This document shows, one piece after another, positions 5,034 through 42,951 of a DNA stretch of 44,245 nt. Where the stretch lies: the sequence record PP920555.1; one strand, 5' to 3'. A program made the translations under genes and the position numbers. The DNA comes from Escherichia phage SM_W22. The notes below the pieces were generated by a model that made no database searches, had not been told where the DNA came from, and was given only the letters and a program-made list of their open reading frames with translations. How positions within the stretch are numbered: the first letter of the stretch is position 1; the number at the start of each line of letters is the position of its first letter.

Positions 5034-5048
5034 TGGCCCCCTTTCGTT
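5023..5048. terminator. Bidirectional intrinsic terminator between convergent genes
   Basis: GGGGGCC-gtgat-GGCCCCC hairpin followed by TTTCGTT; sits between plus spanin stop and minus ORF stop. Confidence 0.7.
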
Positions 5049-5811
5049 AGCGCGGAATACCGCAAATCTCGTTTAGTGTTTTCACGTCCAGCGCCACCGC
5101 CGTGGACTTCGGCTTGTCCGGGTAAGGAATGAACTGTTCAACTTCGGGCCACGCCTTGATCAGCTTCTTATCTGTATTGTGCATATCCAGCACGCCGGTA
5201 ACAGTTAGTTTGAACGCGTCATACTTAGCACGCAACTCACGGCGGGCCTTGTCGTTACGGTCCAGGCGCTTACAGAAATCATGGTCCGCCGGGTAGTCTA
5301 TACGACCGCGTGGCATATATATCGGCAGCGCTTTCCCGTCGTCATCGACTTCGCACACTGACGCTAACAAAATTTCCTCATACCCAGGCACAATATCGCC
5401 GAGATCGGGAGACAGTTTATTCATGTATTTATACTCCCCGTATCCGCGATATACTCGGACTCGGTGTCCGTCTCCGCTCAATGACACGGTACGGACGTTT
5501 CCGCCTGCGTTGATTTCGAAAGTGGCGTCGTAAACGCTGCCTACACCATATGGGCTGTCGGCGTCATGTCTATACGTCGCCTTGTTGGTGTACACACAGA
5601 CGCCGTACATCTGCGACGGGTCACCGCCGATTGCTGCAATGCGCTCACGTAGCTCGGCGAACGAATGAATGCCTTCCGGCATACAGTCCATCGTAATGGC
5701 GTACGCCAGATTTCGAGAGTCCATCATGATTGATTTGGCTTCGGTCGCGATTTCGTGGTCGCGCAGGATGTTAGCCAGAATCTGGTTTTTAATGTCTTTT
5801 GTCAGTCTCAT
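5047..5811 (-). CDS. Hypothetical protein (moron, opposite orientation to structural genes)
   Basis: 254 aa ORF with protein-like composition on minus strand inside plus-strand late module; no motif recognised. Confidence 0.55.
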   Translation of the reverse strand: MRLTKDIKNQILANILRDHEIATEAKSIMMDSRNLAYAITMDCMPEGIHSFAELRERIAAIGGDPSQMYGVCVYTNKATYRHDADSPYGVGSVYDATFEINAGGNVRTVSLSGDGHRVRVYRGYGEYKYMNKLSPDLGDIVPGYEEILLASVCEVDDDGKALPIYMPRGRIDYPADHDFCKRLDRNDKARRELRAKYDAFKLTVTGVLDMHNTDKKLIKAWPEVEQFIPYPDKPKSTAVALDVKTLNEICGIPR

Positions 5812-5854: not shown

Positions 5855-6373
5855 TTAAAGTGCTTCTAGAATCTCGTAAAACTTATTTGCCAGCGCTTGG
5901 CGGCGTTCGAATTTTTCAGTGATAACCAATTCCGGGCGGTTAAATAGCTTTGCGTGGGTGTTCCAATTGAGGATTTCCGTTTCCATTATTTTCTTCCTGT
6001 CCAGCGCTTGGCGGCGTTCGAATTTTTCAGTGATAACCAATTCCGGGCGGTTAAATAGCTTTGCGTGGGTGTTCCAATTGAGGATTTCCGTTTCCATTAT
6101 TTTCTTCCTGTTGTAGTCGGTGTTTTTGATGCTAAATTCCTTGATAGCGTCATTAAGAAAATCAGTCATACACTCAACGTCTGTTCTCTTAACTTCGAAC
6201 GTACGGGACTCGATTGGGCTATTTGTGCGAAGTACGACGACTCCGCCGTGGTAGGTGTCGACTACCATATACTTATAAGTCACCCCATCCCACTCCGGAT
6301 CGAAAGGGCGCCCAAATACGTCGTCGGCTTTCCACACTTTCTGGTACGGTGTTTCTTTAATTAATGTTGGCAT
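5855..6373 (-). CDS. Hypothetical protein with internal 37-aa tandem duplication (moron)
   Basis: Track ORF 5855..6826 trimmed to Met at 6373 (upstream part is antisense of scaffold gene region); repeat KKIMETEILNWNTHAKLFNRPELVITEKFERRQAL occurs twice. Confidence 0.55.
   Translation of the reverse strand: MPTLIKETPYQKVWKADDVFGRPFDPEWDGVTYKYMVVDTYHGGVVVLRTNSPIESRTFEVKRTDVECMTDFLNDAIKEFSIKNTDYNRKKIMETEILNWNTHAKLFNRPELVITEKFERRQALDRKKIMETEILNWNTHAKLFNRPELVITEKFERRQALANKFYEILEAL
5890..6111. repeat. Perfect tandem direct repeat, 2 x 111 bp, in frame within minus-strand ORF
   Basis: Bases 5890-6000 and 6001-6111 read identical base for base; duplication also visible in translated ORF. Confidence 0.9.
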
Positions 6374-6401
6374 CTTGTTTACCTTCATATCTCTGTTGGT
6401 G

Positions 6402-6424
6402 TGCAACCAATATATGCAACCAAT
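6402..6424. promoter_or_regulatory. Two direct copies of TGCAACCAAT motif in divergent intergenic region
   Basis: TGCAACCAAT at 6402-6411 and 6415-6424, between minus moron start (6373) and scaffold start (6528). Confidence 0.4.
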
Positions 6425-8447: not shown

Positions 8448-8474
8448 TGGGCGGGCTTATGCCCGCCTTTTTTA
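8448..8474 (+). terminator. Intrinsic terminator after major capsid gene
   Basis: GGCGGGC-ttat-GCCCGCC hairpin followed by T8. Confidence 0.85.
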
Positions 8475-8488
8475 TAGGAGTGAATCTA

Positions 8489-8989
8489 ATGTATGGCGAC
8501 CCGCAAACCTTTGTCGATTATGCCGATGCGCGAGGCATTGAAATTACGCTGGGCGACGCAACGCGACACCTTACCATCGTTAATGACTTCCTTAACGGCA
8601 TCAACTGGATCGGCGAACAGGCGGACCAGACAGGAATAGACGCATGGCCCCGCATCAATTACCCATCGGACGGGAAGCCGGTGCGCGACACGCTAACCGA
8701 AGTCGTGGCGGTAGTGCCCGCCGGGCAGATCGTAGATTTTGCATCAATCCCCATTGCCGTCGAGCAAGCCGTTTACAGGTTGGCGATGTTGGTGGCGGAC
8801 GAGGTCGATATTTCTCCTGTTGGCAGTGGTAAGGAGACTATCCGCGAAACTGTCGGCCCGATCACGATGGAATATGACCCTGCGACGATTGGTAGCGGTG
8901 TCTCGTTCCCGTGGTGGGATGGCTTGCTGGGTCACTGGATTGGCTCAGACGGCAACGCAGCGGGTAATTTTGATGTATTCCGGGGGTAA
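8489..8989 (+). CDS. Putative head-tail connector / head completion protein
   Basis: Track ORF trimmed to Met with AGGAG RBS; position after capsid gene. Confidence 0.4.
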   Translation: MYGDPQTFVDYADARGIEITLGDATRHLTIVNDFLNGINWIGEQADQTGIDAWPRINYPSDGKPVRDTLTEVVAVVPAGQIVDFASIPIAVEQAVYRLAMLVADEVDISPVGSGKETIRETVGPITMEYDPATIGSGVSFPWWDGLLGHWIGSDGNAAGNFDVFRG

Positions 8990-9087
8990 TATGAATCCTG
9001 CATTACTGGCGGCTATTATCGCCGCAAATACTAAACGCCAACCAGAACCAGCGCCAGAACCGGAACCACCGGTACAGGAGGATGATA

Positions 9088-9441
9088 ATGGCGGGCTTTA
9101 ATTACGCGGGGTTAAAGCGGAAAGTCAATCCGCTGATTAAAAAGTTCGGCATGACGGCTACGGTGACGCGTCCGGGGTCGGTTGACCGCGTAGACGGCGA
9201 CGAAGTGATAATCCCGCCAACGTCGTTCGACGTCATCGGTCTTCGAGAGGAGTACAAGCCGAGCGAGATCGACGGGACGCGTATCGTTGCCGGTGATGTG
9301 AAGTTTTTGTGTCAGGCCGTCAAGCAGGTAAAGGTCGGGGATTTGGTTAGCCTGAACAATACAGACTACCGGGTTATCAATTCCAACCCACTGCAACCGG
9401 CGGGGACGACCATGCTGTTTCAACTACAGCTAAGGGGCTAA
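9088..9441 (+). CDS. Putative head-tail joining protein
   Basis: ORF with AGGAGG RBS about 10 nt upstream; position in neck gene block. Confidence 0.4.
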   Translation: MAGFNYAGLKRKVNPLIKKFGMTATVTRPGSVDRVDGDEVIIPPTSFDVIGLREEYKPSEIDGTRIVAGDVKFLCQAVKQVKVGDLVSLNNTDYRVINSNPLQPAGTTMLFQLQLRG

Positions 9442-9442
9442 C

Positions 9443-10036
9443 GTGGCTGAAGTCTACTCATTCGCCGCCACTATTGCTACGTGGGTGGATAAGACGAAGG
9501 AGAACAACGATAAGGCGGTGCGGGCGTACGGGATGCAAATACTCGGACGCCTTATTGAGATCTCCCCGGTGGGCGACCCTCGCCGGTGGAAAATTAACAG
9601 GGCTTACGCGCTGGCCCGCCAGCACGCGAACAAGGTGAACGCCGCGCAGCGTCGCAAGAATGGTGGCAAACTGAAGCGCGGGCAGAAAAAGCACGCCAGC
9701 GTGCTGGTATCATTCAAGACTAAAAACGGCAACGTCACGTTCCGCCAGCGTGGCTGGGCTGCGAAGAATTACACCGGCGGACGCTTCCGGGGAAACTGGC
9801 AGGTTACGTTCGACCGCCCGGCTGTTGGCGCTATTGACCGCGTGGACAAGGCCGGAACGGCAACATTAGCCGCTGGGCGTGAAGTGTTAGCGCACTATGA
9901 TTCGAGTGAATACGGGTCGATCTGGTTTACTAACAACGTGCCATACGCGCAGCGACTTGAGTATGGCTGGAGTAAACAAGCGCCCGCGGGGATTGTTCGC
10001 GTAGTAGCGGCAGAAATTAATTCGAAGGTGAAATAA
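9443..10036 (+). CDS. Putative neck / tail completion protein (HK97 gp10-like)
   Basis: 197 aa, GTG start per track; position in neck block; C-terminal EYGWSKQAP-like segment. Confidence 0.45.
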   Translation: MAEVYSFAATIATWVDKTKENNDKAVRAYGMQILGRLIEISPVGDPRRWKINRAYALARQHANKVNAAQRRKNGGKLKRGQKKHASVLVSFKTKNGNVTFRQRGWAAKNYTGGRFRGNWQVTFDRPAVGAIDRVDKAGTATLAAGREVLAHYDSSEYGSIWFTNNVPYAQRLEYGWSKQAPAGIVRVVAAEINSKVK

Positions 10037-11993: not shown

Positions 11994-12375
11994 GAAGCGG
12001 GACAGGCGGGACGTCCCGTTTTGTCCCGCCTCTGTAAAACTGCATATCTACTCACTTCCACTGCATAAACTCAAAACGGGACAAGCGGGACGTCCCGTTT
12101 TGTCACGCCCTGTAAATATGCATACCTATGCAGATTTCGTGCATAAACCAAACGGGACAGAAAGCGGGACAAACAAGGGGCGGGACAAAGCGGGACAGCA
12201 CCCCATCCCCGCCAGTGCTGCCGCGGTTTTTAGCCGATCGGGACAGCGGGACAGCACCCCAGTCTTTCAGACTAGACGGGGGTCTATGGCCCCCCTCGTC
12301 TGAGACTGAATAAGGTTTGTTTTGAAATCGCTGATACAATATCCATCGGCAACTGCATAAAAAGGGGACTGCATA
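11994..12375. repeat. Iteron- and palindrome-rich noncoding region (copy A of duplicated element at about 12111-12313)
   Basis: About ten CGGGACA units, perfect palindrome CGGGACGTCCCG twice, CTGCATAA motifs; last roughly 200 bp near-identical to 39447-39654. Confidence 0.75.
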
Positions 12376-15018
12376 ATGGCAGATCAGGCAGCAGGCATCA
12401 CGCTAAAGGCGGATGTCGCACAAATCAGAACGGCGAATACTGTGCTGGATTCATTCGCACAGAAATCCGAGAACACAGAAAACAAGGTTAAGAAATTAAA
12501 CGACACTCTCGGCAAATCCAAAAAGGTGACGAGTGATGCCGCTGGCGGAATGGAGAAGCTGGCAAACGAATCGCAGCGCGCCGCCGATGGCATGACGAAA
12601 CAGGAGCGACTCGCCAACAGGTTAGGCATGTCGACTAAAAACCTGGGCTTTGCCTCGCGTAACGCCGCATTCCAGTTACAGGATATCGCAGTTACGCTTG
12701 AGATGGGGATGCCGGTACACCGCGTTATGCTTCAGCAGTTACCGCAGCTAACTGGGGCGTTCGGTGGATTGGGTAACACTCTGCGTTATGTTGCTGGCTT
12801 CCTCGGTCCAGTTGGGATCGGCCTTGCTGCGGTAACGGCAACGTTAGGCGTGGGCGTAGCAATTACGTCCCGCGCAGAGAACCAGGTCGCAGCGCTTAAC
12901 AAGACGCTGGCGCTGTCAGGTAACATTTCCGGCCTAACGGCAAACCAGATCCTGGTGCTATCCGAGAACGCCGAGCGCATGGGCGGATCATTCCGCAAGA
13001 CGCGTGACACAATCCAGGCGCTGGCGGCGGCGGGTGTGAAAGCGGGGGCGGACTTCGGCGCGCTGGCGAAGGTTGTGAATGACTTCGCGAAGGCGTCTAA
13101 TCAGCCGATCTCTGACGTGGTTGAATCCATCTCAAAATTGTCGAACGACCCAGTGGGCGGACTGCGTGCGCTGGCGGATAAGTATCATGTCGTTACCGAG
13201 GCGCAGATCCAGCAGGTGCAATCGCTTGTAGATATGGGGCGTGAAACGGACGCGGTTGCTCTGGCTAACAAAACAGCCGCTGCGTCGTTCTCCAGCATGA
13301 CCGATGAGGTAAAGTCCAACATGGGTACGCTTGAGCGGTCGATGAACGTAGTTACATCGGCAGCTAAATCTATGTGGGATGCCATCCTGGATGTGGGCCG
13401 CGCGCAGTCCTCGAATGAGTCCGAGATGAAAGCGCGTGAGTCCTTGCAGCGCATGACCACGGCGTACTATGCCGAGATGAGGGCGGTAAACGCTGCCGGT
13501 GGGGTGATGACCGAAGCGCAGAAAGCGCGTATTAACATGCTTTACAGCGAACTGGTCGCCCAGGAAAAGGTAGTAGCGTCGCTCACCCTTCGCAACCGTG
13601 CCGAGCGAGACAGCGCCAGCGCCGCGGATGAAGCAGCAAAGGCGAACGAGGAGGCAAACCGCGCCGCCCGCGACCGCGCCGCGTTTGAGAAGGAGTACGC
13701 AACCAACGCTAAGAAGCGCGCCGACGAGATCGCCCGCCTCAATTTGCTGAATAAGCGCGGCGTGATCGACGAGAAGGAACTGGCTGAGGCGGTGAAGCAG
13801 GTCAACGAGCGCTACAAAGACCCAGCACCGAAGAAGGCAGCGGCTGTTCGCGTGGATGCCGGCATGAAAATGCTGGAGGTCGCACGGAGCGAACTGGCAC
13901 AGCTTCGGGAATCAGGCAAGCAGATTGAGGCCAACTCCTCAACTCAGACCCGCACACAGCGCGCGCAAGCGGCCCTTAACAAGCTGATTGCCGATAATGA
14001 GCAGTTAATCGCAGCTAGTAAGGAAAGGGCACTCACGGCAGCAGAGAAGCAGCAATTAGTCGAATTTGGACGCGTGAAGGAAGTCCGCGAGCAGATCGTC
14101 GAAGAAGCCAAATTGCTGGACGCGAAAGAGAAGCAGGTCAAGGCGCACGCGCAGATCGATGCCTTCGTTAAGAACCAGAACGCAGAGCTAAAAGCCACCG
14201 CCGCGGGCTATGCACTTTCCACTCGCGAAGCGGCTAACCTTCGCGAAGAATTGCAGCTAATTGACCGCCTTCGTCGTGTTGGCGCTAACGATACCGATAT
14301 TGACCTGGCGGTGTCTAAGCTGCGCGAAGTGCAGGAAGCACAGACCGGGGCTAACGCCTCGCTATGGGATGGCTTCAGCCGCGGGCTTAAGGATAGCGTT
14401 GATGAAATGGGTAACGGATATACGCAGATGACGACACTCACAAAATTCACGTTCGGCGCTATGCAGGACACGATGAACGAGTTTTTCGAGACTGGTAAGC
14501 TGAACGCAAAGGATATGGTTAAGTCCATCCTGAGCGAATTAATCAAGCTGGCTACCTCGCAGGCGTTCAAGTCCATCGTTAGCGCTTTCGGTGGCGACGG
14601 CGGCAAAAACGGATTGTTCGGCGCTATCTTCTCTGGCCTTACTAAGAATGCGGACGGCGGAGCGTACGCAGGCGGCAATCTCGCGGCCTATTCGGGGAAA
14701 GTGGTAAGCCAGCCTACCTTTTTCAGTTATGGCGTCCAGGCGTTCGCTAGGGGCGCAGGATTGATGGGCGAGGCTGGTCCCGAGGCCATCATGCCGCTGA
14801 AGCGCGGGCCGGACGGGAAACTGGGCGTTGCCGCGTCTGGCGCAGGCGGTGGTATGGTCGTGACGACTAACGTTTACACGGGGGCCGGTAAAACGGATAC
14901 CAGTGTCAGCGGGCCGGATCCTCGTACCGCGCAGGCGTTCGGCAAGCAAATCACCGAGGCGGTGAAGGCCGAGATCGTGAAGGCGACGAAACCGGGTGGT
15001 GTACTTTACAAACGATGA
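12376..15018 (+). CDS. Tail tape measure protein
   Basis: 880 aa, long coiled-coil/Ala-rich protein with Gly-rich C-terminal region; position after chaperones. Confidence 0.88.
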   Translation: MADQAAGITLKADVAQIRTANTVLDSFAQKSENTENKVKKLNDTLGKSKKVTSDAAGGMEKLANESQRAADGMTKQERLANRLGMSTKNLGFASRNAAFQLQDIAVTLEMGMPVHRVMLQQLPQLTGAFGGLGNTLRYVAGFLGPVGIGLAAVTATLGVGVAITSRAENQVAALNKTLALSGNISGLTANQILVLSENAERMGGSFRKTRDTIQALAAAGVKAGADFGALAKVVNDFAKASNQPISDVVESISKLSNDPVGGLRALADKYHVVTEAQIQQVQSLVDMGRETDAVALANKTAAASFSSMTDEVKSNMGTLERSMNVVTSAAKSMWDAILDVGRAQSSNESEMKARESLQRMTTAYYAEMRAVNAAGGVMTEAQKARINMLYSELVAQEKVVASLTLRNRAERDSASAADEAAKANEEANRAARDRAAFEKEYATNAKKRADEIARLNLLNKRGVIDEKELAEAVKQVNERYKDPAPKKAAAVRVDAGMKMLEVARSELAQLRESGKQIEANSSTQTRTQRAQAALNKLIADNEQLIAASKERALTAAEKQQLVEFGRVKEVREQIVEEAKLLDAKEKQVKAHAQIDAFVKNQNAELKATAAGYALSTREAANLREELQLIDRLRRVGANDTDIDLAVSKLREVQEAQTGANASLWDGFSRGLKDSVDEMGNGYTQMTTLTKFTFGAMQDTMNEFFETGKLNAKDMVKSILSELIKLATSQAFKSIVSAFGGDGGKNGLFGAIFSGLTKNADGGAYAGGNLAAYSGKVVSQPTFFSYGVQAFARGAGLMGEAGPEAIMPLKRGPDGKLGVAASGAGGGMVVTTNVYTGAGKTDTSVSGPDPRTAQAFGKQITEAVKAEIVKATKPGGVLYKR

Positions 15019-16439: not shown

Positions 16440-17180
16440 ATGTTAACGAAGAAGGTTAAAAGCGATATCGCCGCACACGTCGCGGCCTGTCTGCCGGAAG
16501 AAGCCTGTGGCCTGGTTGTCATGGTGGGTCGTAAGCAAGTGTTCGTCCCATGTCTGAACGTATTCGAAGACCCGACCGGCGTGCGCTCACGCAAAGACGC
16601 TTTTACGATTAGTGATATGGCCTGGATGGATGCCGAGGATATGGGCGACGTCGTGCGCGTAGTCCACTCACACCCGGGTCAGCGCGAGTTAACCCCCTCA
16701 CTGGGCGACGTTAACGGATGCAACGGCAGCGGCGTAGTGTGGACCATCACTAACGAATATGGCGACTTTATTGAGATTGACCCGGAAGACCCGCCGCTGG
16801 TAGGCCGCCGATTTGTTCTCGGAATTACGGATTGTTACGGCCTCGTCATGGACTGGCACAAAAAGCAGGGAGTAAATTTGCCAGACTTCCGCGTGCCGTA
16901 TAACTGGTGGGAGACAGGCGAAAATCTGTATATGGATAACTGGTACGGCGCTGGATTCAGGGAATGCGAGGAGAATACGCCGGGGGCGATGGTCATCATG
17001 CAGATTAGCGCGCCAGTGCCTAACCACGCCGGGATATTCCTTCCAGGCAACCAACTCCTACACCATATCTACGGCAGTCTGTCGAGCGTGATACCCTTCC
17101 GGTCAGGATTTTTCCGGGACAATGTGGTTAAATGGGTACGTCATAAAGACCTACCGGGGAATATAACAGAATGGCAATGA
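16440..17180 (+). CDS. Tail assembly protein K-like (JAB/MPN + NlpC/P60)
   Basis: HSHP metal-binding motif (VVHSHPG) and downstream Cys/His-containing region; position after L. Confidence 0.7.
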   Translation: MLTKKVKSDIAAHVAACLPEEACGLVVMVGRKQVFVPCLNVFEDPTGVRSRKDAFTISDMAWMDAEDMGDVVRVVHSHPGQRELTPSLGDVNGCNGSGVVWTITNEYGDFIEIDPEDPPLVGRRFVLGITDCYGLVMDWHKKQGVNLPDFRVPYNWWETGENLYMDNWYGAGFRECEENTPGAMVIMQISAPVPNHAGIFLPGNQLLHHIYGSLSSVIPFRSGFFRDNVVKWVRHKDLPGNITEWQ

Positions 17181-22217: not shown

Positions 22218-22239
22218 AGAAAATCCCCTTTCGGGGATT
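22216..22239 (-). terminator. Hairpin terminator between convergent genes (T-run on minus strand)
   Basis: AATCCCC-tttc-GGGGATT hairpin with A-run on plus side (T-run for minus transcript). Confidence 0.6.
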
Positions 22240-22456
22240 ATTCGCAGGTGGTGTTTTTGAAATGGTCTACCGACACGTACTGGAAGCTAAACGGATAACC
22301 CGCCCTTAGCATTTTATGCCCGGAGAAGTCCGCAACACCATACACAGGGACCACATAATCCATGCCGCTATTCTGGTATGTGGCGTCGCAGACTTTAGCG
22401 GGCATGTCGGCACAACCTGACAAAAGAACCGCACAAATCATAATTAAAGTTTTCAT
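22238..22456 (-). CDS. Small lipoprotein, candidate superinfection-exclusion / receptor-blocking protein (T5 Llp / Cor-like by architecture)
   Basis: Signal peptide MKTLIMICAVLLSGC with lipobox; about 57 aa mature protein with 2 further Cys; antisense and divergent from tail fiber gene. Confidence 0.6.
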   Translation of the reverse strand: MKTLIMICAVLLSGCADMPAKVCDATYQNSGMDYVVPVYGVADFSGHKMLRAGYPFSFQYVSVDHFKNTTCE

Positions 22457-22512: not shown

Positions 22513-22522
22513 TGCAACCAAT
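22513..22522. promoter_or_regulatory. TGCAACCAAT motif upstream of tail fiber gene
   Basis: Motif in 82 bp divergent intergenic region between lipoprotein and fiber genes. Confidence 0.35.
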
Positions 22523-24128: not shown

Positions 24129-24134
24129 ATAGAA

Positions 24135-24158
24135 GGGGCCATGCGGCCCCTTTTTTAG
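24135..24158. terminator. Bidirectional intrinsic terminator between late and replication modules
   Basis: GGGGCC-atgc-GGCCCC hairpin followed by T6; convergent gene ends on both sides. Confidence 0.8.
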
Positions 24159-24772: not shown

Positions 24773-25327
24773 TTATTTCAGTGCGCCAGTCACCAGTGTT
24801 TTTTCCATGTTGCGGAAGTCTTCCGGCGTCATGAGGATTTTGGACCCATCCTCGCCAGTGAGCACGACCATAGGCTGGACGTCCTGGGCTACGACGCCGA
24901 AATCGGCGGCTTTAACAGTCTTCCCGAACGAGGCTACCACACCCTCGGCAACGCGCATTGCACTGTTATACGCATTAATCTCGCCGTCAAGACGCACGGA
25001 CAGATCTTTGAGGCTTTCAAACTGTTCTGCCGTTGTATCGATCTGAATCTCGTCGTGTACGGTCATGTACGACTCGCCCAGCAAAGCCGCATACGCTACC
25101 AGGTCGACGATATTGTCTTCCTGGTGCTTACGGTGCTGGCGCACCAGCTTCAGGCAGATCAGGAAGGTCCATGCTTCTTGCTCGGTCAGGTCGCGACCGG
25201 TAAGCGCGTTAAACACGGCGGCAATTTGTTTCGCGCTGCGTTCCTCTTTCGCGTTGTCATAGCCGTTTGCTTTCCCGCGCTGTTCCATAGTGGTGGCGGC
25301 GTTTTTGCAGTATTCGTATGCTTTCAT
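24773..25327 (-). CDS. Hypothetical protein
   Basis: 184 aa ORF with protein-like composition; no motif confidently recognised. Confidence 0.5.
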   Translation of the reverse strand: MKAYEYCKNAATTMEQRGKANGYDNAKEERSAKQIAAVFNALTGRDLTEQEAWTFLICLKLVRQHRKHQEDNIVDLVAYAALLGESYMTVHDEIQIDTTAEQFESLKDLSVRLDGEINAYNSAMRVAEGVVASFGKTVKAADFGVVAQDVQPMVVLTGEDGSKILMTPEDFRNMEKTLVTGALK

Positions 25328-25379: not shown

Positions 25380-25403
25380 TTGCAACCAACCTATTGGTTG
25401 CAA
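25380..25403. promoter_or_regulatory. Palindromic pair of TTGCAACCAA motifs
   Basis: TTGCAACCAA-ccta-TTGGTTGCAA perfect inverted repeat; third partial copy TTGCAACG about 10 bp downstream. Confidence 0.45.
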
Positions 25404-26908: not shown

Positions 26909-26935
26909 TGCAACCAATATGATTATGCAACCAAT
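26909..26935. promoter_or_regulatory. Two direct copies of TGCAACCAAT
   Basis: Copies at 26909-26918 and 26926-26935 in intergenic gap upstream of minus gene starting at 26854. Confidence 0.4.
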
Positions 26936-29647: not shown

Positions 29648-29821
29648 TTATTTTTGCTCTGCGCGGTAGCGGCGCTGCCGTTCGCGCTCTTTTTTATTGC
29701 GGCACGATTTGCACTCCGCCCGATACCCGTCCGGGCTACGCGCAGTCTTGCCGGTGTATTTGTGGAACTGGGATAGCGGTTTAACGCAGCCGCAATTACT
29801 GCAACGTTTTTCTTCGATCAT
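29648..29821 (-). CDS. Zinc-ribbon protein (CxxC...CxxC)
   Basis: 57 aa from Met with GAGGA RBS; CSNCGC...ECKSC motif similar to N-terminal Zn modules of phage nucleases. Confidence 0.45.
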   Translation of the reverse strand: MIEEKRCSNCGCVKPLSQFHKYTGKTARSPDGYRAECKSCRNKKERERQRRYRAEQK

Positions 29822-29861: not shown

Positions 29862-30140
29862 CTATGCGACCAACTCAGCAACCAATAAATCACAGTCGGC
29901 TATGTTGTCAATAACGCGAACGTCGGCGCCGCGGCGAGCCATCCGCTCATGCTCTCGCACCTGGTGCGGCTTCGGTTTTCCTCCTGGGCGCTTCACTTCG
30001 ACGAATACTATGATGCCGTTGATGATGATAATCAGGTCGGGCGCACCTGCGCGCCCCTCCCATGCCACTTTGCGGCAGAATCCACCCACCGCTTTCACCC
30101 GACGCATCAGGTAGCGTTGAATCTTGCCTTCTGGAGTCAT
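29862..30140 (-). CDS. VRR-NUC domain nuclease
   Basis: GAPDLIII...VFVEVKRPGGKP...Q pattern of PD-(D/E)XK VRR-NUC domain; 92 aa. Confidence 0.65.
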   Translation of the reverse strand: MTPEGKIQRYLMRRVKAVGGFCRKVAWEGRAGAPDLIIIINGIIVFVEVKRPGGKPKPHQVREHERMARRGADVRVIDNIADCDLLVAELVA

Positions 30141-33714: not shown

Positions 33715-33738
33715 CTTGGTTGCCAATTTACTTGGTTG
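33715..33738. promoter_or_regulatory. Two copies of TTGGTTGC (reverse complement of GCAACCAA) upstream of SSB gene
   Basis: Copies at 33715-33723 and 33730-33738, in gap between minus genes. Confidence 0.35.
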
Positions 33739-33749
33739 CGCTTAAGCGG

Positions 33750-36322: not shown

Positions 36323-36727
36323 GGTATATCTCCGATTGGTTAAGTTTAGGTGTCGGCAGTTAACTTCGTCGGTGGCCTTAACATATTGCCAGGTTACGCG
36401 TTCTCCCGTTCGGGTAGTGGACCTGGTTATATAATCACGGTTGGGAATCCTGACACTTCGATCCGGCCCCTGCGTTGCCCCTCTCCAGTTTGCGTCCTGC
36501 ATCCTGTCGACGGAGTGAATGATAGATTGGTTGCAGGATGGGTGTCAACAACTAATTTCAAAAAAAAAAAAGCGCCGAGGCAAAATGCACCGGCGCTAAC
36601 CAATAAGAGACAATGAGACGGGAATTATTATTACACGCGTGCGCGCCCGTTTCAATATCCAAAGGATTTGACACCTTGTGGTTTTAGGTGTAGTTTCATT
36701 GGTCATTAACCAACAGGAGACTGAATT
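36323..36727. promoter_or_regulatory. Divergent early control region
   Basis: About 400 bp noncoding between divergent operons; contains TTGACA -35-like hexamer, ATTGGTTGCA motif (36526-36535), A12 tract and hairpin. Confidence 0.45.
36559..36597 (-). terminator. Terminator-like hairpin with 12-A tract (T12 on minus strand)
   Basis: AGCGCCG-13 nt loop-CGGCGCT preceded on plus strand by A12; oriented to stop leftward transcription. Confidence 0.35.
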
Positions 36728-37057
36728 ATGAATATCAAAGAAGCAATTGAAGTGTTATCTAATGCAATCCGCGGCGAAGCGGGTAAATCCTGGTATTACA
36801 CAAATGCGGTGGATACTCTGTTATTTGAAGTGTCCAGATTATCGCGTGCTGAGAAGGAGCTTACCGCGAAGCTGGAATTGCTCAACGGCACGGCAGCAAG
36901 CAAGCTGCAAAAACACAATGAAGAAATGGAAGAATACAAAAAACAGGTTATCCGTCTACGTGAGGAAGGTAAATCCTGGGCGATGATTGCCGAGTTGACC
37001 GGAATTAATCAGAGCACAGTGCGCTCCTGGGTACGCAATAATAAAACTTCTAAGTAA
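36728..37057 (+). CDS. HTH DNA-binding protein (putative transcriptional regulator)
   Basis: 109 aa; C-terminal helix-turn-helix-like segment SWAMIAELTGINQSTVRSWV; first gene of rightward operon; RBS CAGGAGA. Confidence 0.55.
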   Translation: MNIKEAIEVLSNAIRGEAGKSWYYTNAVDTLLFEVSRLSRAEKELTAKLELLNGTAASKLQKHNEEMEEYKKQVIRLREEGKSWAMIAELTGINQSTVRSWVRNNKTSK

Positions 37058-39332: not shown

Positions 39333-39345
39333 ATTCTGCGCGCGT

Positions 39346-39442
39346 TGGTTGCCGATATGTGGATCCCCATATCGCTAAAAGACTAAATTTTGCGCGCATT
39401 GGTTGCCATTTTGAGTGTTTTTATCCAGTCGCATTGGTTGCC
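39346..39442. repeat. Three direct copies of GCGC(G/A)TTGGTTGCC-containing repeat flanking a GGATCC-centred palindrome
   Basis: TAAATTcTGCGCGCgTTGGTTGCC and TAAATTtTGCGCGCaTTGGTTGCC 54 bp apart, third GCATTGGTTGCC copy downstream; GATATG-tggatcccc-CATATC hairpin between. Confidence 0.6.
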
Positions 39443-39446
39443 GTGT

Positions 39447-39654
39447 AGTGTAAATATAATGAATAGTTATGCAGTTTTGCTGCATAAAGTAAGCGGGACA
39501 AAAAGCGGGACAAACAAGGGGCGGGACAAAGCGGGACAGCACCCCCGTCCCGCCAGTGCTGCCGCGGTTTTTAGCCGATCGGGACAGCGGGACAGCACCC
39601 CAGTCTTTCAGACTAGACGGGGGTCAATGGCCCCCCTCGTCTGAGACTGAATAA
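39447..39654. repeat. Copy B of duplicated roughly 205 bp iteron element (GCGGGACA repeats)
   Basis: Aligns by eye at roughly 90-95% identity with 12111-12313, including five GCGGGACA units and a GC-rich terminal hairpin. Confidence 0.75.
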
Positions 39655-39804
39655 AATCCGGAGATTGCAAAATACACGGCAACATGATGCGAAGTGCGGT
39701 CGTCGATGAACTAGGCAACCAATGCGGGTTGTATTATGCTGAGTGAAAAATGCAGTTTGCAGCCACAGCAGATAGCGATCAACTTTTTCATACGCGTGAT
39801 TAAT

Positions 39805-39844
39805 ATTGGTTGCATCCGTGCCAGCACCCTGCTATATTGGTTGC
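39805..39844. promoter_or_regulatory. Two direct copies of ATTGGTTGCA upstream of 39869 gene
   Basis: Copies at 39805-39814 and 39835-39844, 30 bp apart; a further GCAACCAAT at 39714-39723. Confidence 0.4.
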
Positions 39845-39868
39845 ACATCAACATGAGGACTGAACAAA

Positions 39869-40354: not shown

Positions 40355-40624
40355 ATGGGACGTAGACGAGCAAAACAGCTTTCGTGGCATATTCCCCTGC
40401 ATTGCATACGAATATGGGCTGAGAATGCAGTTGAGGGCGATTCTGTGTACTGGTGCTATCGCGACGACGTAAAGCCGTTGACGCAGACTCGCTACTTGCA
40501 CCAGTTCGCAGCACAACACGATTTCAGGGTGCGGACTTCCTTGCAACCAATGGGGATTCGTATTACATTACGCCGGAAGCCCGCCGTTGAGCGGGTAGGC
40601 AAACACTGGAGACTGAGCAAATGA
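40355..40624 (+). CDS. Hypothetical protein
   Basis: 89 aa basic ORF; contains TTGCAACCAAT motif near its 3' end. Confidence 0.4.
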   Translation: MGRRRAKQLSWHIPLHCIRIWAENAVEGDSVYWCYRDDVKPLTQTRYLHQFAAQHDFRVRTSLQPMGIRITLRRKPAVERVGKHWRLSK

Positions 40625-42926: not shown

Positions 42927-42951
42927 AAGCCCGGTTAATTCCGGGCTTTTT
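42927..42951 (+). terminator. Intrinsic terminator after lysis cassette
   Basis: AGCCCGG-ttaatt-CCGGGCT hairpin followed by T6. Confidence 0.75.

What the first reader, a model, noticed from the sequence alone, without database searches (positions are those of the whole stretch)
25380..25403. Genome-wide recurring motif TGCAACCAAT (ATTGGTTGCA) in intergenic regions
The 10-mer or close variants occur at 6402, 6415, 22513, 25381/25393 (perfect palindrome TTGCAACCAA-ccta-TTGGTTGCAA), 26909, 26926, 33715, 33730, 36526, 39346, 39398, 39433, 39714, 39805, 39835 and 40541, mostly within about 120 bp upstream of gene starts and often as tandem or inverted pairs. Enrichment at regulatory positions suggests an operator for a phage regulator or a phage-specific promoter element; it does not match the sigma70 consensus.
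Basis: seen in the sequence. Interest (0 to 1): 0.65.

Follow-up and report, generated by a model that had tools for sequence, protein, structure and literature searches.

The report
Dispersed operator-like motif in a Dhillonvirus
A 10-base word, (T/G)GCAACCAA(T/C), is scattered about 20 times through this E. coli phage genome, almost always on top of predicted promoters of non-structural genes, and most likely is the docking site of a still unidentified regulator that turns those promoters down.

Summary
The window is a Dhillonvirus (HK578/SO-1-like virulent siphophage). TGCAACCAAT occurs 10 times against 0.11 expected and is the most over-represented 9/10-mer. Of 20 GCAACCAA cores, 15 lie in the 6% of non-coding DNA and 3 more lie within 74 nt of a gene's 3' end.

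The cores are nearly invariant in more than 15 related genomes while their flanks vary. The same core is also the top word in Edwardsiella phage eiAU-183, a different genus, at syntenic gene boundaries. Ten other relatives that share the replication module lack it.

The copies sit on sigma70-like core promoters in no fixed register: in the spacer next to -10, supplying a TTGCA(A/T) -35, or across -10/+1. They occur in both orientations. This fits operators of a DNA-binding regulator, probably negative and Cro-like. It does not fit a phage-specific promoter element.

Its HTH is invariant, and its own promoter carries a motif copy in divergent relatives. It remains unproven, and eiAU has no homolog. 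The sites at 6402/6415 and 22513 probably serve minus-strand moron and cor genes rather than the scaffold and tail-fibre genes.

This is a new member of a known kind and of moderate interest.

The parts
6402..6424 (+). direct pair TGCAACCAAT-ata-TGCAACCAAT (13-bp spacing) in the divergent region between a minus-strand moron ORF (5855-6388) and the scaffold gene (ATG 6529)
   Evidence: Minus-strand promoter TTGCAA(6437-6432)-N17-TATATT(6414-6409) puts one copy in the spacer next to -10 and the other across -10/+1. The pair is conserved in HK578, SO-1, Oekolampad and L101.
22513..22522 (+). single copy between the cor-like gene (22238-22456, minus) and the lateral tail fibre gene (ATG 22539). 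Degenerate inverted copies TTGGTTGA (22476) and TCAACCAG (22501) lie nearby.
   Evidence: On the minus strand ATTGG-TTGCAA(22517-22512)-N17-(TGt)AATACT(22494-22489) points to cor (my reading of the sequence). cor identity from phrog_1119, E = 3e-26.
25380..25403 (.). the finding's coordinates: perfect inverted pair TTGCAACCAA-ccta-TTGGTTGCAA between the PNK-like gene stop (25391) and the DUF6378 gene start (25327)
   Evidence: Minus-strand promoter TTGCAA-N18-TATAGT at 25403-25374. Invariant in the 3 relatives aligned. It can form an RNA hairpin (-24.8 kcal/mol for the 81-nt context, z = -3.3) but has no U-tract on the transcribed strand.
26909..26935 (+). direct pair (17-bp spacing) between the HNH gene (stop 26936) and the ligase-like gene (start 26854), both on the minus strand
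   Evidence: Minus-strand reading: ATTGG-TTGCAT(26930-26925)-N17-TATCTT(26907-26902), with the second copy filling the spacer.
29865..29886 (+). pair TGCGACCAAC (degenerate) + AGCAACCAAT (12-bp spacing) in the last codons of the VRR-NUC gene, upstream of the Lar-like zinc-ribbon gene (ATG 29821, minus)
   Evidence: Minus-strand reading: TTGGTTGCTG-ag-TTGGTCGCA-tagcgg-TATAGT. eiAU-183 has the same spacing at 42934/42946.
33715..33740 (-). direct pair GCAACCAAG (16-bp spacing) flanking the -10 of the promoter of the Enc34/gp2.5-type SSB gene
   Evidence: TTGACC(33753)-N17-TAAATT(33725). The -35, both motif copies and TAnATT are conserved in 15 unique sequences, while the upstream spacer and the third -10 base vary.
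36526..36535 (-). single copy inside the spacer of the main leftward early promoter P_L
   Evidence: TTGACA(36548)-N18-TATCAT(36519), an 11/12 consensus match. The motif is invariant while the rest of the spacer varies and carries a 1-nt indel. In the divergent relatives L150/L152 two tandem copies fill the spacer: TTGAC-GCAACCAAC-GCAACCAAT.
36698..36714 (.). degenerate inverted half-motifs ATTGGT-catt-AACCAAC just downstream of the -10 of the rightward early promoter P_R (TTGACA 36668-36673, TAGTTT 36691-36696), in the 5'UTR of the HTH gene
   Evidence: The same position carries an exact GCAACCAAT in L150 and L152 (TATATT-N9-GCAACCAAT-N15-ATG). The element is absent in HK578.
36728..37057 (+). 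109-aa protein: a long helix (residues 23-79) followed by a C-terminal tri-helical HTH; the leading but unproven candidate binder
   Evidence: Pfam HTH_23 7e-7 and Sigma70_r4_2 8e-7. The C-terminal ~60 aa, including the recognition helix STVRSW, are invariant across very different N-termini. AF2 pLDDT 87. Fold hits match the HTH only (transposase, LuxR and resolvase types), none with E <= 0.001.
39344..39442 (-). three copies (39344-39353, 39398-39407, 39433-39442) of the extended form GGCAACCAA(T/C)GCG, in the non-coding region after the primase-helicase gene
   Evidence: The first copy lies in a 54-bp unit that is absent from 9 of the 16 unique sequences aligned. ATTGGTTGCCGTG of the third copy is invariant, 12 nt upstream of a TATAAT-like hexamer.
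39714..39723 (+). single copy GGCAACCAATGCG, 8 nt upstream of a variable nAnnAT hexamer
39805..39845 (-). direct pair (31-bp spacing) on the promoter of the first rightward small gene (ATG 39869): ATTGG-TTGCAT(39810-39815)-N17-TATATT(39833-39838), with the second copy across -10/+1
   Evidence: Both copies are near-invariant while the 17-bp spacer between them is highly variable. eiAU-183 18148/18116 has the same architecture.
40542..40551 (+). single copy in the 3' end of gene 40355-40624: TTGCAA(40541-40546)-N17-TACATT(40564-40569), upstream of the gene at 40621
   Evidence: The motif and the downstream CGTATTAC are retained in genomes whose upstream gene is not homologous (a mosaic junction).
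13699..13706 (+). GCAACCAA core deep in the tape-measure gene; probably a chance copy
   Evidence: About 1.9 copies are expected by chance in the window.
17047..17054 (+). GCAACCAA core inside a minor tail gene; probably a chance copy

Best explanation
The word (T/G)GCAACCAA(T/C) is the recognition site of a sequence-specific double-stranded-DNA-binding regulator. Its roughly 18 functional copies are operators laid over the core (about -40 to +15) of sigma70-type promoters read by host RNA polymerase. These promoters head the non-structural transcription units: the five units of the leftward replication arm (P_L, SSB, Lar-like, ligase-like, DUF6378), the rightward small-gene units after the primase-helicase gene, and two minus-strand accessory genes (a moron ORF and cor) embedded in the structural arm. 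A protein bound in the spacer, on the -35 or across -10/+1 would exclude RNA polymerase. The most likely effect is therefore coordinated negative control, meaning Cro-like turn-down or autoregulation of early/middle transcription as the regulator accumulates. The binder is most likely phage-encoded, and the best candidate is the 109-aa long-helix + HTH protein encoded first on the rightward arm. SHOWN: enrichment, intergenic location, conservation above the flanks, synteny across two genera, absence of a fixed register or orientation. INFERRED: that the sigma70-like hexamers are real promoters, the sign of regulation, and the identity of the binder.
For: Enrichment and location. Footprints: motif columns are 85% fully conserved vs 56% for other non-coding columns in the same alignments, and the motif is invariant inside otherwise variable promoter spacers. 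Cross-genus conservation: the same core is the top word in Edwardsiella phage eiAU-183. It lies upstream of the SSB gene, between the VRR-NUC gene and the next gene, upstream of the scaffold gene, and in a 13-copy cluster after the primase-helicase gene, although the intergenic DNA is not alignable. Promoter overlap: 4 of the 27 promoter-like scan hits fall on motif clusters. P_L is an 11/12 consensus promoter that needs no activator yet carries the motif in its spacer, and two tandem copies fill that spacer in L150/L152. Several sites have a copy across -10/+1 (39837, 6403, 33716, eiAU 18116). The promoter at 39806 and eiAU 42946 have TGn extended -10 elements, so a copy at -35 is not needed for activity (my reading). 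Variable register and 10:10 orientation argue for an operator rather than a promoter element. Candidate binder: the HTH is invariant across hypervariable N-termini, the gene's own promoter carries a copy at about +1..+12 in L150/L152, and the long helix suggests a dimer able to bridge paired sites.
Against: No binding or transcription data exist, and none were found in the literature. The promoters are consensus matches only, and such matches occur at chance frequency genome-wide. eiAU-183 keeps the motif but has no homolog of the HTH protein. It has an XRE-type HTH at the equivalent position and a Hin-like HTH protein, gp54, and the hhalign probability for gp54 vs the Dhillonvirus family is only 7.7%. 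So either two unrelated proteins read the same word or the binder is something else. Several sites put the motif exactly on a weak -35 (TTGCAT/TTGCAA/TTGCTG + N17 + TAnnnT), which is also the geometry of class II activators. The copies at 39344-39442 have no convincing promoter.
Confidence: 0.55

Rival explanations
1. Activator site / -35 surrogate. The regulator binds the motif where it overlaps a weak -35 and recruits host RNA polymerase to 'middle' promoters (like Mu Mor/C, phi29 p4 at A3, or T4 MotA), possibly while repressing the consensus early promoters.
For: At least 7 sites have ATTGG-TTGCA(T/A) or TTGCAA-CCAAT exactly 17 (16-18) bp upstream of a TAnnnT hexamer: 39806, 26927, 29878, 40543, 25394, 22514 (minus strand), eiAU 18148 and 42946. 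The -35 hexamers are only 3-4/6 matches. The HTH domain scores as sigma70 region 4-like. The protein's layout (N-terminal helices + C-terminal HTH, about 110 aa) resembles Mor/C (my knowledge).
Against: The register is not constant: the motif sits in the spacer next to -10 at 36527 and 33732, across -10/+1 at 39837, 6403 and 33716, and 12 nt from -10 at 39434. Orientation is mixed. Only 4/20 (window) and 2/23 (eiAU) copies have TAnnnT at 16-18 bp in the reverse orientation, against about 1.2 expected by my rough estimate. P_L is near-consensus, and some class-B promoters have extended -10 elements.
Confidence: 0.17
2. Replication-initiator boxes (DnaA-box-like). The motif is bound by a phage replication protein at an origin in the non-coding region after the primase-helicase gene, and the dispersed copies couple replication to transcription.
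For: The largest clusters lie directly downstream of the primase-helicase gene in both genera: 6 copies at 39.34-39.85 kb in the window and 13 in eiAU 26.87-27.64 kb. The SO-1 record annotates this stretch as repeat 'region B'. Other relatives carry different repeated words at the same place (L028 CAGCCAAC, L023 AAGGGATA, L025 GACAGACC).
Against: Two thirds of the copies are outside that region and lie on promoters. Copies are irregularly spaced and in both orientations. No domain of the primase-helicase co-varies with the motif: window vs eiAU is no more similar than window vs motif-less relatives, and the HK578 N-terminus is only 49% identical although HK578 has the same motif. Region B holds a second, better iteron candidate, the direct CGGGACA arrays.
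Confidence: 0.1
3. Host-factor site. A protein shared by E. coli, Sodalis and Edwardsiella (a transcription factor or nucleoid protein) binds the motif, and the phages exploit it.
For: The motif is shared by two genera whose candidate phage regulators are not homologous. All motif-bearing phages infect Enterobacterales.
Against: I know of no E. coli regulator with this consensus (memory only; CytR GTTGCATT and PdhR ATTGGT..ACCAAT share fragments only). Kagunavirus St162, which infects Salmonella and has the same replication module, has 0 copies. The host genome was not scanned.
Confidence: 0.1
4. Not a binding site. The copies are short boundary sequences left by, or promoting, mosaic recombination between gene modules, or a compositional accident.
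For: Several copies lie at mosaic junctions: 40543, the 54-bp indel at 39.35 kb, and beside variable moron genes at 6.4 and 22.5 kb.
Against: 10 bp is too short for homologous recombination. The word is kept exactly across genera with unalignable flanks. The enrichment is about 90-fold over expectation (10 copies vs 0.11), and no shuffle reaches the observed count.
Confidence: 0.03

Closest known systems
Phage P1 C1 repressor operators (asymmetric 17-bp ATTGCTCTAATAAATTT sites dispersed over the genome) - from my knowledge, not tested here
   Same: Asymmetric site, a dozen or more copies scattered through the genome, single or paired in either orientation, lying over promoters of many separate transcription units.
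   Different: P1 is temperate and C1 is an immunity repressor. This phage is virulent (no integrase or repressor annotated in the relatives). The site is 10 bp rather than 17, with unrelated sequence, and the binder is unknown.
Lambda Cro / O_R-O_L logic (first gene of the rightward operon encodes a small HTH protein that turns down both divergent early promoters)
   Same: A small HTH gene is the first gene of the rightward arm. There are divergent early promoters P_L and P_R. A motif copy lies in P_L and, in L150/L152, another lies just downstream of the P_R -10 in front of the HTH gene itself.
   Different: Lambda operators are 17-bp pseudo-palindromes confined to two loci. Here a 10-bp asymmetric word is spread over about 12 loci. 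The HTH is of the HTH_23/sigma-r4/resolvase type with a long helix, not the Cro fold.
Mycobacteriophage L5 gp71 'stoperators' (13-bp asymmetric sites in short intergenic regions) - from my knowledge
   Same: Short asymmetric word, about 20-30 copies, confined to intergenic DNA, conserved in related phages.
   Different: Stoperators have one orientation relative to transcription and act on elongation. Here orientation is 10:10 and the sites coincide with promoter cores.
IncP plasmid KorA/KorB global regulon - from my knowledge
   Same: One short operator reused at many backbone promoters, at different positions relative to the promoter, giving coordinated repression.
   Different: That is a plasmid system, KorB is a ParB homolog, and its operators are palindromic. 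No ParB-like gene was seen here.
T4 MotA boxes / Mu Mor and C activator sites
   Same: A 9-10-bp word replaces a poor -35 at several promoters; the regulator is small with a C-terminal HTH.
   Different: MotA boxes sit at a fixed -30 in one orientation. That feature was tested here and is not met.

Membership tests
sigma70 core promoter element (-35 or -10 hexamer) | Fixed register: -35 hexamer 16-18 bp upstream of a TAnnnT -10 | tested here: not met
   The motif is found in the spacer abutting -10 (36527, 33732), on the -35 (39806, 26927, 29878, 40543), and across -10/+1 (39837, 6403, 33716).
sigma70 core promoter element (-35 or -10 hexamer) | Match to TTGACA or TATAAT | tested here: inconclusive
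   The motif contains TTGCA(A/T), 3-4 of 6 matches to the -35 consensus; when preceded by TAT it creates TATATT (39833, 6414). It overlaps the hexamers rather than being one of them.
Phage-specific promoter (T7-type RNAP promoter or T4 MotA-box middle promoter) | One orientation relative to the downstream gene and constant distance to the start site | tested here: not met
   10 copies read GCAACCAAT and 10 read ATTGGTTGC in the sense of local transcription (from and the gene map). Distances to -10 range from 0 to 18 nt.
Phage-specific promoter (T7-type RNAP promoter or T4 MotA-box middle promoter) | Phage-encoded RNA polymerase or sigma/appropriator | tested here: inconclusive
   No RNAP is annotated in Oekolampad, HK578 or SO-1, and none appeared in the Pfam/PHROG scans of about 30 window proteins. 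The 109-aa protein has a sigma70 region-4-like HTH but no other sigma regions.
Dispersed asymmetric repressor operators (P1 C1-type) | Asymmetric short site, many copies dispersed in intergenic DNA, conserved among relatives | tested here: met
   conserved in two genera.
Dispersed asymmetric repressor operators (P1 C1-type) | Sites overlap promoter cores | tested here: inconclusive
   They overlap predicted sigma70-like promoters at 9 or more clusters, and 4 of the 27 scan hits fall on them against about 0.4 expected by my estimate. No start sites have been mapped.
Dispersed asymmetric repressor operators (P1 C1-type) | A cognate protein binds the site and represses | not testable with these tools
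   Needs EMSA/footprinting and reporter assays. The candidates are only inferred.
L5-type stoperators | Single orientation relative to the direction of transcription | tested here: not met
   10:10 split.
Replication-origin iterons | Same-orientation, regularly spaced array confined to one locus next to the initiator gene | tested here: not met
   Only 6 of 20 copies are in 39.34-39.85 kb; they have mixed orientation and irregular spacing (54, 35, 281, 91 and 31 bp). The CGGGACA arrays in the same region fit better.
Rho-independent terminator (for 25380-25403 only) | G+C-rich hairpin followed by a U-tract on the transcribed strand | tested here: not met
   The stem has 4 GC of 10 pairs. The plus-strand tail GTGAATTTTG made the scan list it, but local genes are on the minus strand, where the hairpin is followed by UAUAGUUAACUCG.
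Known structured RNA family (Rfam) | Covariance-model match at gathering score | tested here: not met
   0 matches in the whole window.

The most novel reading that the evidence does not exclude
The motif is read not by a classical repressor but by the transcription machinery itself. In this reading the 109-aa protein, whose HTH scores as sigma70 region 4, docks on host RNA polymerase as a surrogate region 4 and retargets it to promoters with TTGGTTGCA at -35. This would be a sigma-appropriation scheme like T4 AsiA/MotA, but built from a single small protein. Alternatively, the word is read by a factor common to Dhillonvirus and Eiauvirus that is not any annotated regulator, either a host protein or a replication protein with hidden sequence specificity. 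That would explain why two genera with non-homologous HTH proteins keep the same 9-bp word.
Probability: 0.08. Interest if true: 0.7.

Novelty: new member of a known kind. Interest (0 to 1): 0.4.

Why it matters
Dhillonviruses are common coliphages. More than 150 genomes exist, several are in the BASEL collection, and they are used in defence-system and phage-engineering work. Despite this, their gene-expression programme is undescribed. I found no paper that mentions this motif, promoters or transcript maps for the genus. The SO-1 GenBank record only flags two repeat regions.

A single 10-bp word marking about a dozen promoter regions gives a concrete, testable map of the transcription units and a handle for finding the regulator. 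It is also practical for engineering: insertions should avoid the motif or can reuse it, and the word could act as a portable phage-controlled operator. Its conservation in Eiauvirus, with different candidate regulators, raises the question of who reads it. The kind of thing (dispersed operators of a phage regulator) is well known, so the surprise value for a specialist is moderate.

Tried and rejected
1. Scan of IMG/VR for paired cores (GCAACCAA-N1-28-GCAACCAA). Apart from Dhillonvirus contigs, the multi-copy hits were coding tandem repeats: collagen-like GGN-CAA-CCA-AGG arrays and 21-27-bp repeats.

2. Literature search for the word itself returned only primers and unrelated sequences. The eiAU and YD-2008.s genome papers do not discuss repeats or promoters. 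The only 'Dhillonvirus + transcriptome' paper has RNA-seq for a T5-like phage only.

3. Primase-helicase as the binder. Per-domain identities do not track motif presence.

4. 'Lar-like' zinc-ribbon protein (29648-29821) as a binder shared with eiAU. The first table showed a 58% match only in eiAU, but the free-standing eiAU gp21 does not match the window, and the domain is the zinc ribbon common to endonuclease VII/HNH proteins. I dropped it.

5. gp46-like first gene of the leftward arm. It has no Pfam or PDB sequence match, it is present in motif-less relatives too, and it is no closer in eiAU.

6. eiAU gp54 as a distant homolog of the HTH protein. There is only a generic HTH resemblance: BLASTP finds nothing, the shuffle z-score is 2.3-4.7, and hhalign probability is 7.7%.

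7. Motif as an RNA element or translational operator next to the SD. The apparent GAGGA after 6424 is not conserved, orientation is mixed, and there is no Rfam hit.

8. Terminator reading of the 25380 palindrome was rejected.

9. Kagunavirus St162 as a further motif carrier: 0 copies.
Full report
WHAT THE WINDOW IS. A megablast of 24-42 kb finds 187 phage records, and 116 of them cover at least 80% of the query at about 90-94% identity. These include Escherichia phages jat and Oekolampad, Sodalis phage SO-1 and other Dhillonvirus members. The gene order follows the annotated relatives. A rightward structural arm runs from TerS (23) to the lateral tail fibre gene (ends 24128). A leftward replication arm runs from 36502 down to 24155 and encodes the gp46-like protein, exonuclease, Enc34/gp2.5-type SSB, DNA polymerase I, VRR-NUC, helicase, Dcm, HNH, Dam and others. 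A rightward arm runs from 36728 and encodes the HTH protein, the primase-helicase, a 540-bp non-coding stretch, small genes, the lysis genes and an exonuclease. The two non-structural arms diverge from 36502-36728.

With a gene map built from the ORF list and the annotated relatives, 15 of the 20 cores fall in the 6.2% of DNA that is non-coding (binomial P = 8e-15). Three more lie 3, 16 and 74 nt from the 3' end of a gene, just upstream of the next one. The two remaining copies (13699 and 17047) are deep in tail genes, which is the number expected by chance. The information lies in 10 positions, (T/G)GCAACCAA(T/C), and the flanks carry no signal.

CONSERVATION. I aligned seven motif-bearing intergenic stretches with up to 16 distinct Dhillonvirus sequences: three annotated genomes and 15 IMG/VR loci found through the primase-helicase. 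Motif columns are fully conserved in 85% of cases, against 56% for the other non-coding columns (mean identity 0.95 vs 0.85).

The individual footprints are informative. In the leftward early promoter the -35 (TTGAC) and the word TGCAACCAATCTA are invariant, while the rest of the spacer varies and even changes length by one base. Upstream of the SSB gene the two motif copies, the -35 and positions 1, 2, 4, 5 and 6 of the -10 are fixed. At 39805-39845 both copies are fixed while the 17 bases between them are among the most variable in the region. At 40543 the conserved block begins exactly at the motif in genomes whose upstream gene is unrelated.

BEYOND THE GENUS. Ten loci with a primase-helicase only 37-45% identical were also recovered. 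Nine have 0-2 copies of the core. One, L027, has 16 copies in 22 kb, with GCAACCAAC as its top 9-mer. L027 is Edwardsiella phage eiAU-183, genus Eiauvirus.

In the complete eiAU-183 genome the copies occupy the same kinds of places as in the window, although the intergenic DNA cannot be aligned. About 13 copies (10 exact cores plus 1-mismatch copies) lie in the non-coding stretch after the primase-helicase gene. One lies upstream of the SSB gene. Three lie between the VRR-NUC gene and the next gene. One lies upstream of the scaffold gene. A cluster lies in the non-coding stretch before the tape-measure gene.

A more divergent Dhillonvirus-like lineage, L150/L152, aligns to the window at about 71-73% nucleotide identity over only part of its length. 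It was reached through homologs of the HTH protein and also has the motif as its top word. Salmonella phage St162 (Kagunavirus) shares the replication module and has no copy. Conservation of a 9-bp word at syntenic gene boundaries across genera is strong evidence that it is read by something.

ANATOMY RELATIVE TO PROMOTERS. The simple sigma70 scan lists 27 promoter-like sites in about 40 kb, no more than in shuffles. However, four of them sit on motif clusters, where I estimate about 0.4 would by chance. Reading the conserved hexamers in the alignments gives three arrangements.

(a) A good -35, then 8 nt, then the motif, then the -10. This applies to P_L, TTGACA-N8-GCAACCAAT-c-TATCAT (36548-36519), and to P_ssb, TTGACC-N8-GCAACCAAG-TAAATT-g-GCAACCAAG (33753-33715).

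(b) The motif supplies a weak -35, as ATTGG-TTGCA(T/A) or TTGCAA-CCAAT, followed by 17 (16-18) nt and TAnnnT. This applies to 39810-39838, 26930-26902, 29881-29853, 40541-40569 and 25403-25374. It also applies, on the minus strand, to 22517-22489 in front of the cor-like gene, and to eiAU 18148 and 42946.

(c) A copy lies across -10/+1 as TATA-TTGGTTGCA. This applies to 39833-39845 and 6414-6402, with TATAG-TTGGTTGCA at eiAU 18116.

In L150 and L152 two tandem copies fill the entire P_L spacer (TTGAC-GCAACCAAC-GCAACCAAT-c-TAGTAT). An exact copy also lies 9 nt downstream of the -10 of the rightward promoter, in front of the HTH gene. The window has the degenerate inverted half-sites ATTGGT-catt-AACCAAC at that position.

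Relative to the local direction of transcription, ten copies read GCAACCAAT and ten read ATTGGTTGC. A word that is conserved inside spacers, occupies no fixed register and works in both orientations is not a core promoter element. It behaves like a protein-binding site placed wherever it overlaps the polymerase footprint.

WHICH GENES. All the promoters involved head non-structural units. At 6402/6415 the best promoter (TTGCAA-17-TATATT) points leftward to a 177-codon minus-strand ORF at 5855-6388. The scaffold ATG is 105 nt further right and has its own TTGCGA-16-TAATAT (my reading). At 22513 the -35/-10 pair points to the cor-like superinfection-exclusion gene (phrog_1119). I cannot exclude that these copies also act on the rightward late promoters from about -50.

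MECHANISM PROPOSED. The copies are operators for one regulator that occludes host RNA polymerase at about a dozen early/middle promoters. This would give a coordinated turn-down and, at the regulator's own promoter, autoregulation. The main arguments for repression rather than activation are:
- P_L is an 11/12 consensus promoter.
- Several sites have copies across -10/+1.
- Copies lie inside normal-length (17-18 bp) spacers.
- Two class (b) promoters have TGn extended -10 elements, which make the -35 dispensable.
The sign of regulation remains an inference. The class (b) geometry is also that of class II activators, so a dual repressor/activator is possible.

WHO BINDS? An AlphaFold model (pLDDT 87) shows a 57-residue helix running into a tri-helical HTH. 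Structural neighbours match only the HTH (transposase, LuxR/NarL and serine-recombinase types), and none reaches E <= 0.001. Across homologs the N-terminal 45 residues are hypervariable, while the last ~60, including the recognition helix STVRSW, are invariant. That pattern fits an invariant DNA target. The gene's Cro-like position and the motif copy in its own promoter region fit too.

Against this candidate, eiAU-183 keeps the motif but has no detectable homolog. It has an XRE-type HTH gene at the equivalent position. It also has a 117-aa protein, gp54, with a Hin-like GRPRA arm and HTH, whose own predicted promoter is covered by motif copies. gp54 is not demonstrably related to the Dhillonvirus protein: hhalign probability is 7.7%.

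No domain of the primase-helicase tracks the motif, and other shared proteins gave no lead. I therefore put about 0.3 on the 109-aa protein as the binder and leave a host factor or an unrecognised phage protein open.

COMPARISON WITH WHAT IS KNOWN. Functionally the nearest analogues are dispersed asymmetric operators such as those of P1 C1, the Cro logic of lambda, the stoperators of mycobacteriophage L5 and the KorA/KorB regulon of IncP plasmids (my knowledge). Membership in fixed-register promoter classes (sigma70 hexamers, T4 MotA boxes, phage-RNAP promoters) was tested and not met. The same holds for origin iterons, an intrinsic terminator (for the palindrome) and any Rfam family.

The SO-1 GenBank record already marks the stretch after the primase-helicase as a repeat region. 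I found no description of the genome-wide word. My verdict is a real, conserved, previously undescribed regulatory word of a familiar kind.

Noticed in passing
window 11998-12247 and 39494-39588: A second repeat family, (G)CGGGACA(A/G). There are 8 direct copies (plus one inverted at 12022) in the non-coding stretch before the tape-measure gene and 6 direct copies after the primase-helicase gene. These are the 'region A' and 'region B' repeat regions annotated in the SO-1 record. In eiAU-183 the equivalent two regions carry GCAACCAA clusters instead. The arrays are candidate origin iterons or sites for a second DNA-binding protein.
   Followed up: partly
window 39603-39650: A highly conserved long hairpin, AGTCTTTCAGACTAGACGGGGG...CCCCCCTCGTCTGAGACT, with sequence changes confined to its tip in relatives. 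It lies between the CGGGACA array and the next motif copy and could be an ssi-like or RNA element.
   Followed up: no
window 5890-6000 / 6001-6111: A perfect 111-bp tandem duplication inside the minus-strand ORF 5855-6388, which duplicates 37 codons (KKIMETEILNWNTHAKLFNRPELVITEKFERRQAL...). The region is variable among relatives: a RusA-like gene in SO-1 and a different ORF in HK578.
   Followed up: partly
window 36561-36600 (minus strand): An intrinsic-terminator-like hairpin, GCGCCG...CGGCGC followed by T12 on the minus strand, immediately upstream of P_L and inside the divergent control region. Oekolampad annotates a tiny ORF there. Between it and P_R lies a strongly conserved block, GCTAACCAATAAGAGACAATGAGACGG, which holds a 7/9 motif-like word.
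   Followed up: no
window 36728-37057 and homologs P0010-P0024, L002 35575-36003: The HTH protein has an invariant C-terminal 60 aa but many unrelated N-terminal segments of 30-90 aa. HK578 has a 142-aa version, and its 5'UTR is replaced from just after the -35. This looks like modular swapping of an effector or dimerisation part on a fixed DNA-binding module.
   Followed up: partly
window 5047-5811 (minus) and 24773-25327 (minus); L029 28137-28778 and 23021-23413: Both genera encode an Nmad5 (nucleotide-modification-associated domain 5) protein and a DUF6378 protein. This hints at a shared DNA or nucleotide modification function that is not annotated in the records.
   Followed up: no
L028 (IMGVR_UViG_3300036781_000031) 8450-9750; L023; L025: Distant relatives lacking GCAACCAA carry their own repeated 8-9-mers in the stretch after the primase-helicase gene: L028 has ACAGCCAAC, a 7/9 match to the motif; L023 has AAGGGATAA; L025 has CCGACAGACC. 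This suggests lineage-specific versions of the same kind of site.
   Followed up: partly
window 24131-24154: A bidirectional terminator hairpin (AGAAGGGGCC-atgc-GGCCCCTTTT, with T-runs on both strands) where the rightward structural arm and the leftward replication arm converge.
   Followed up: no
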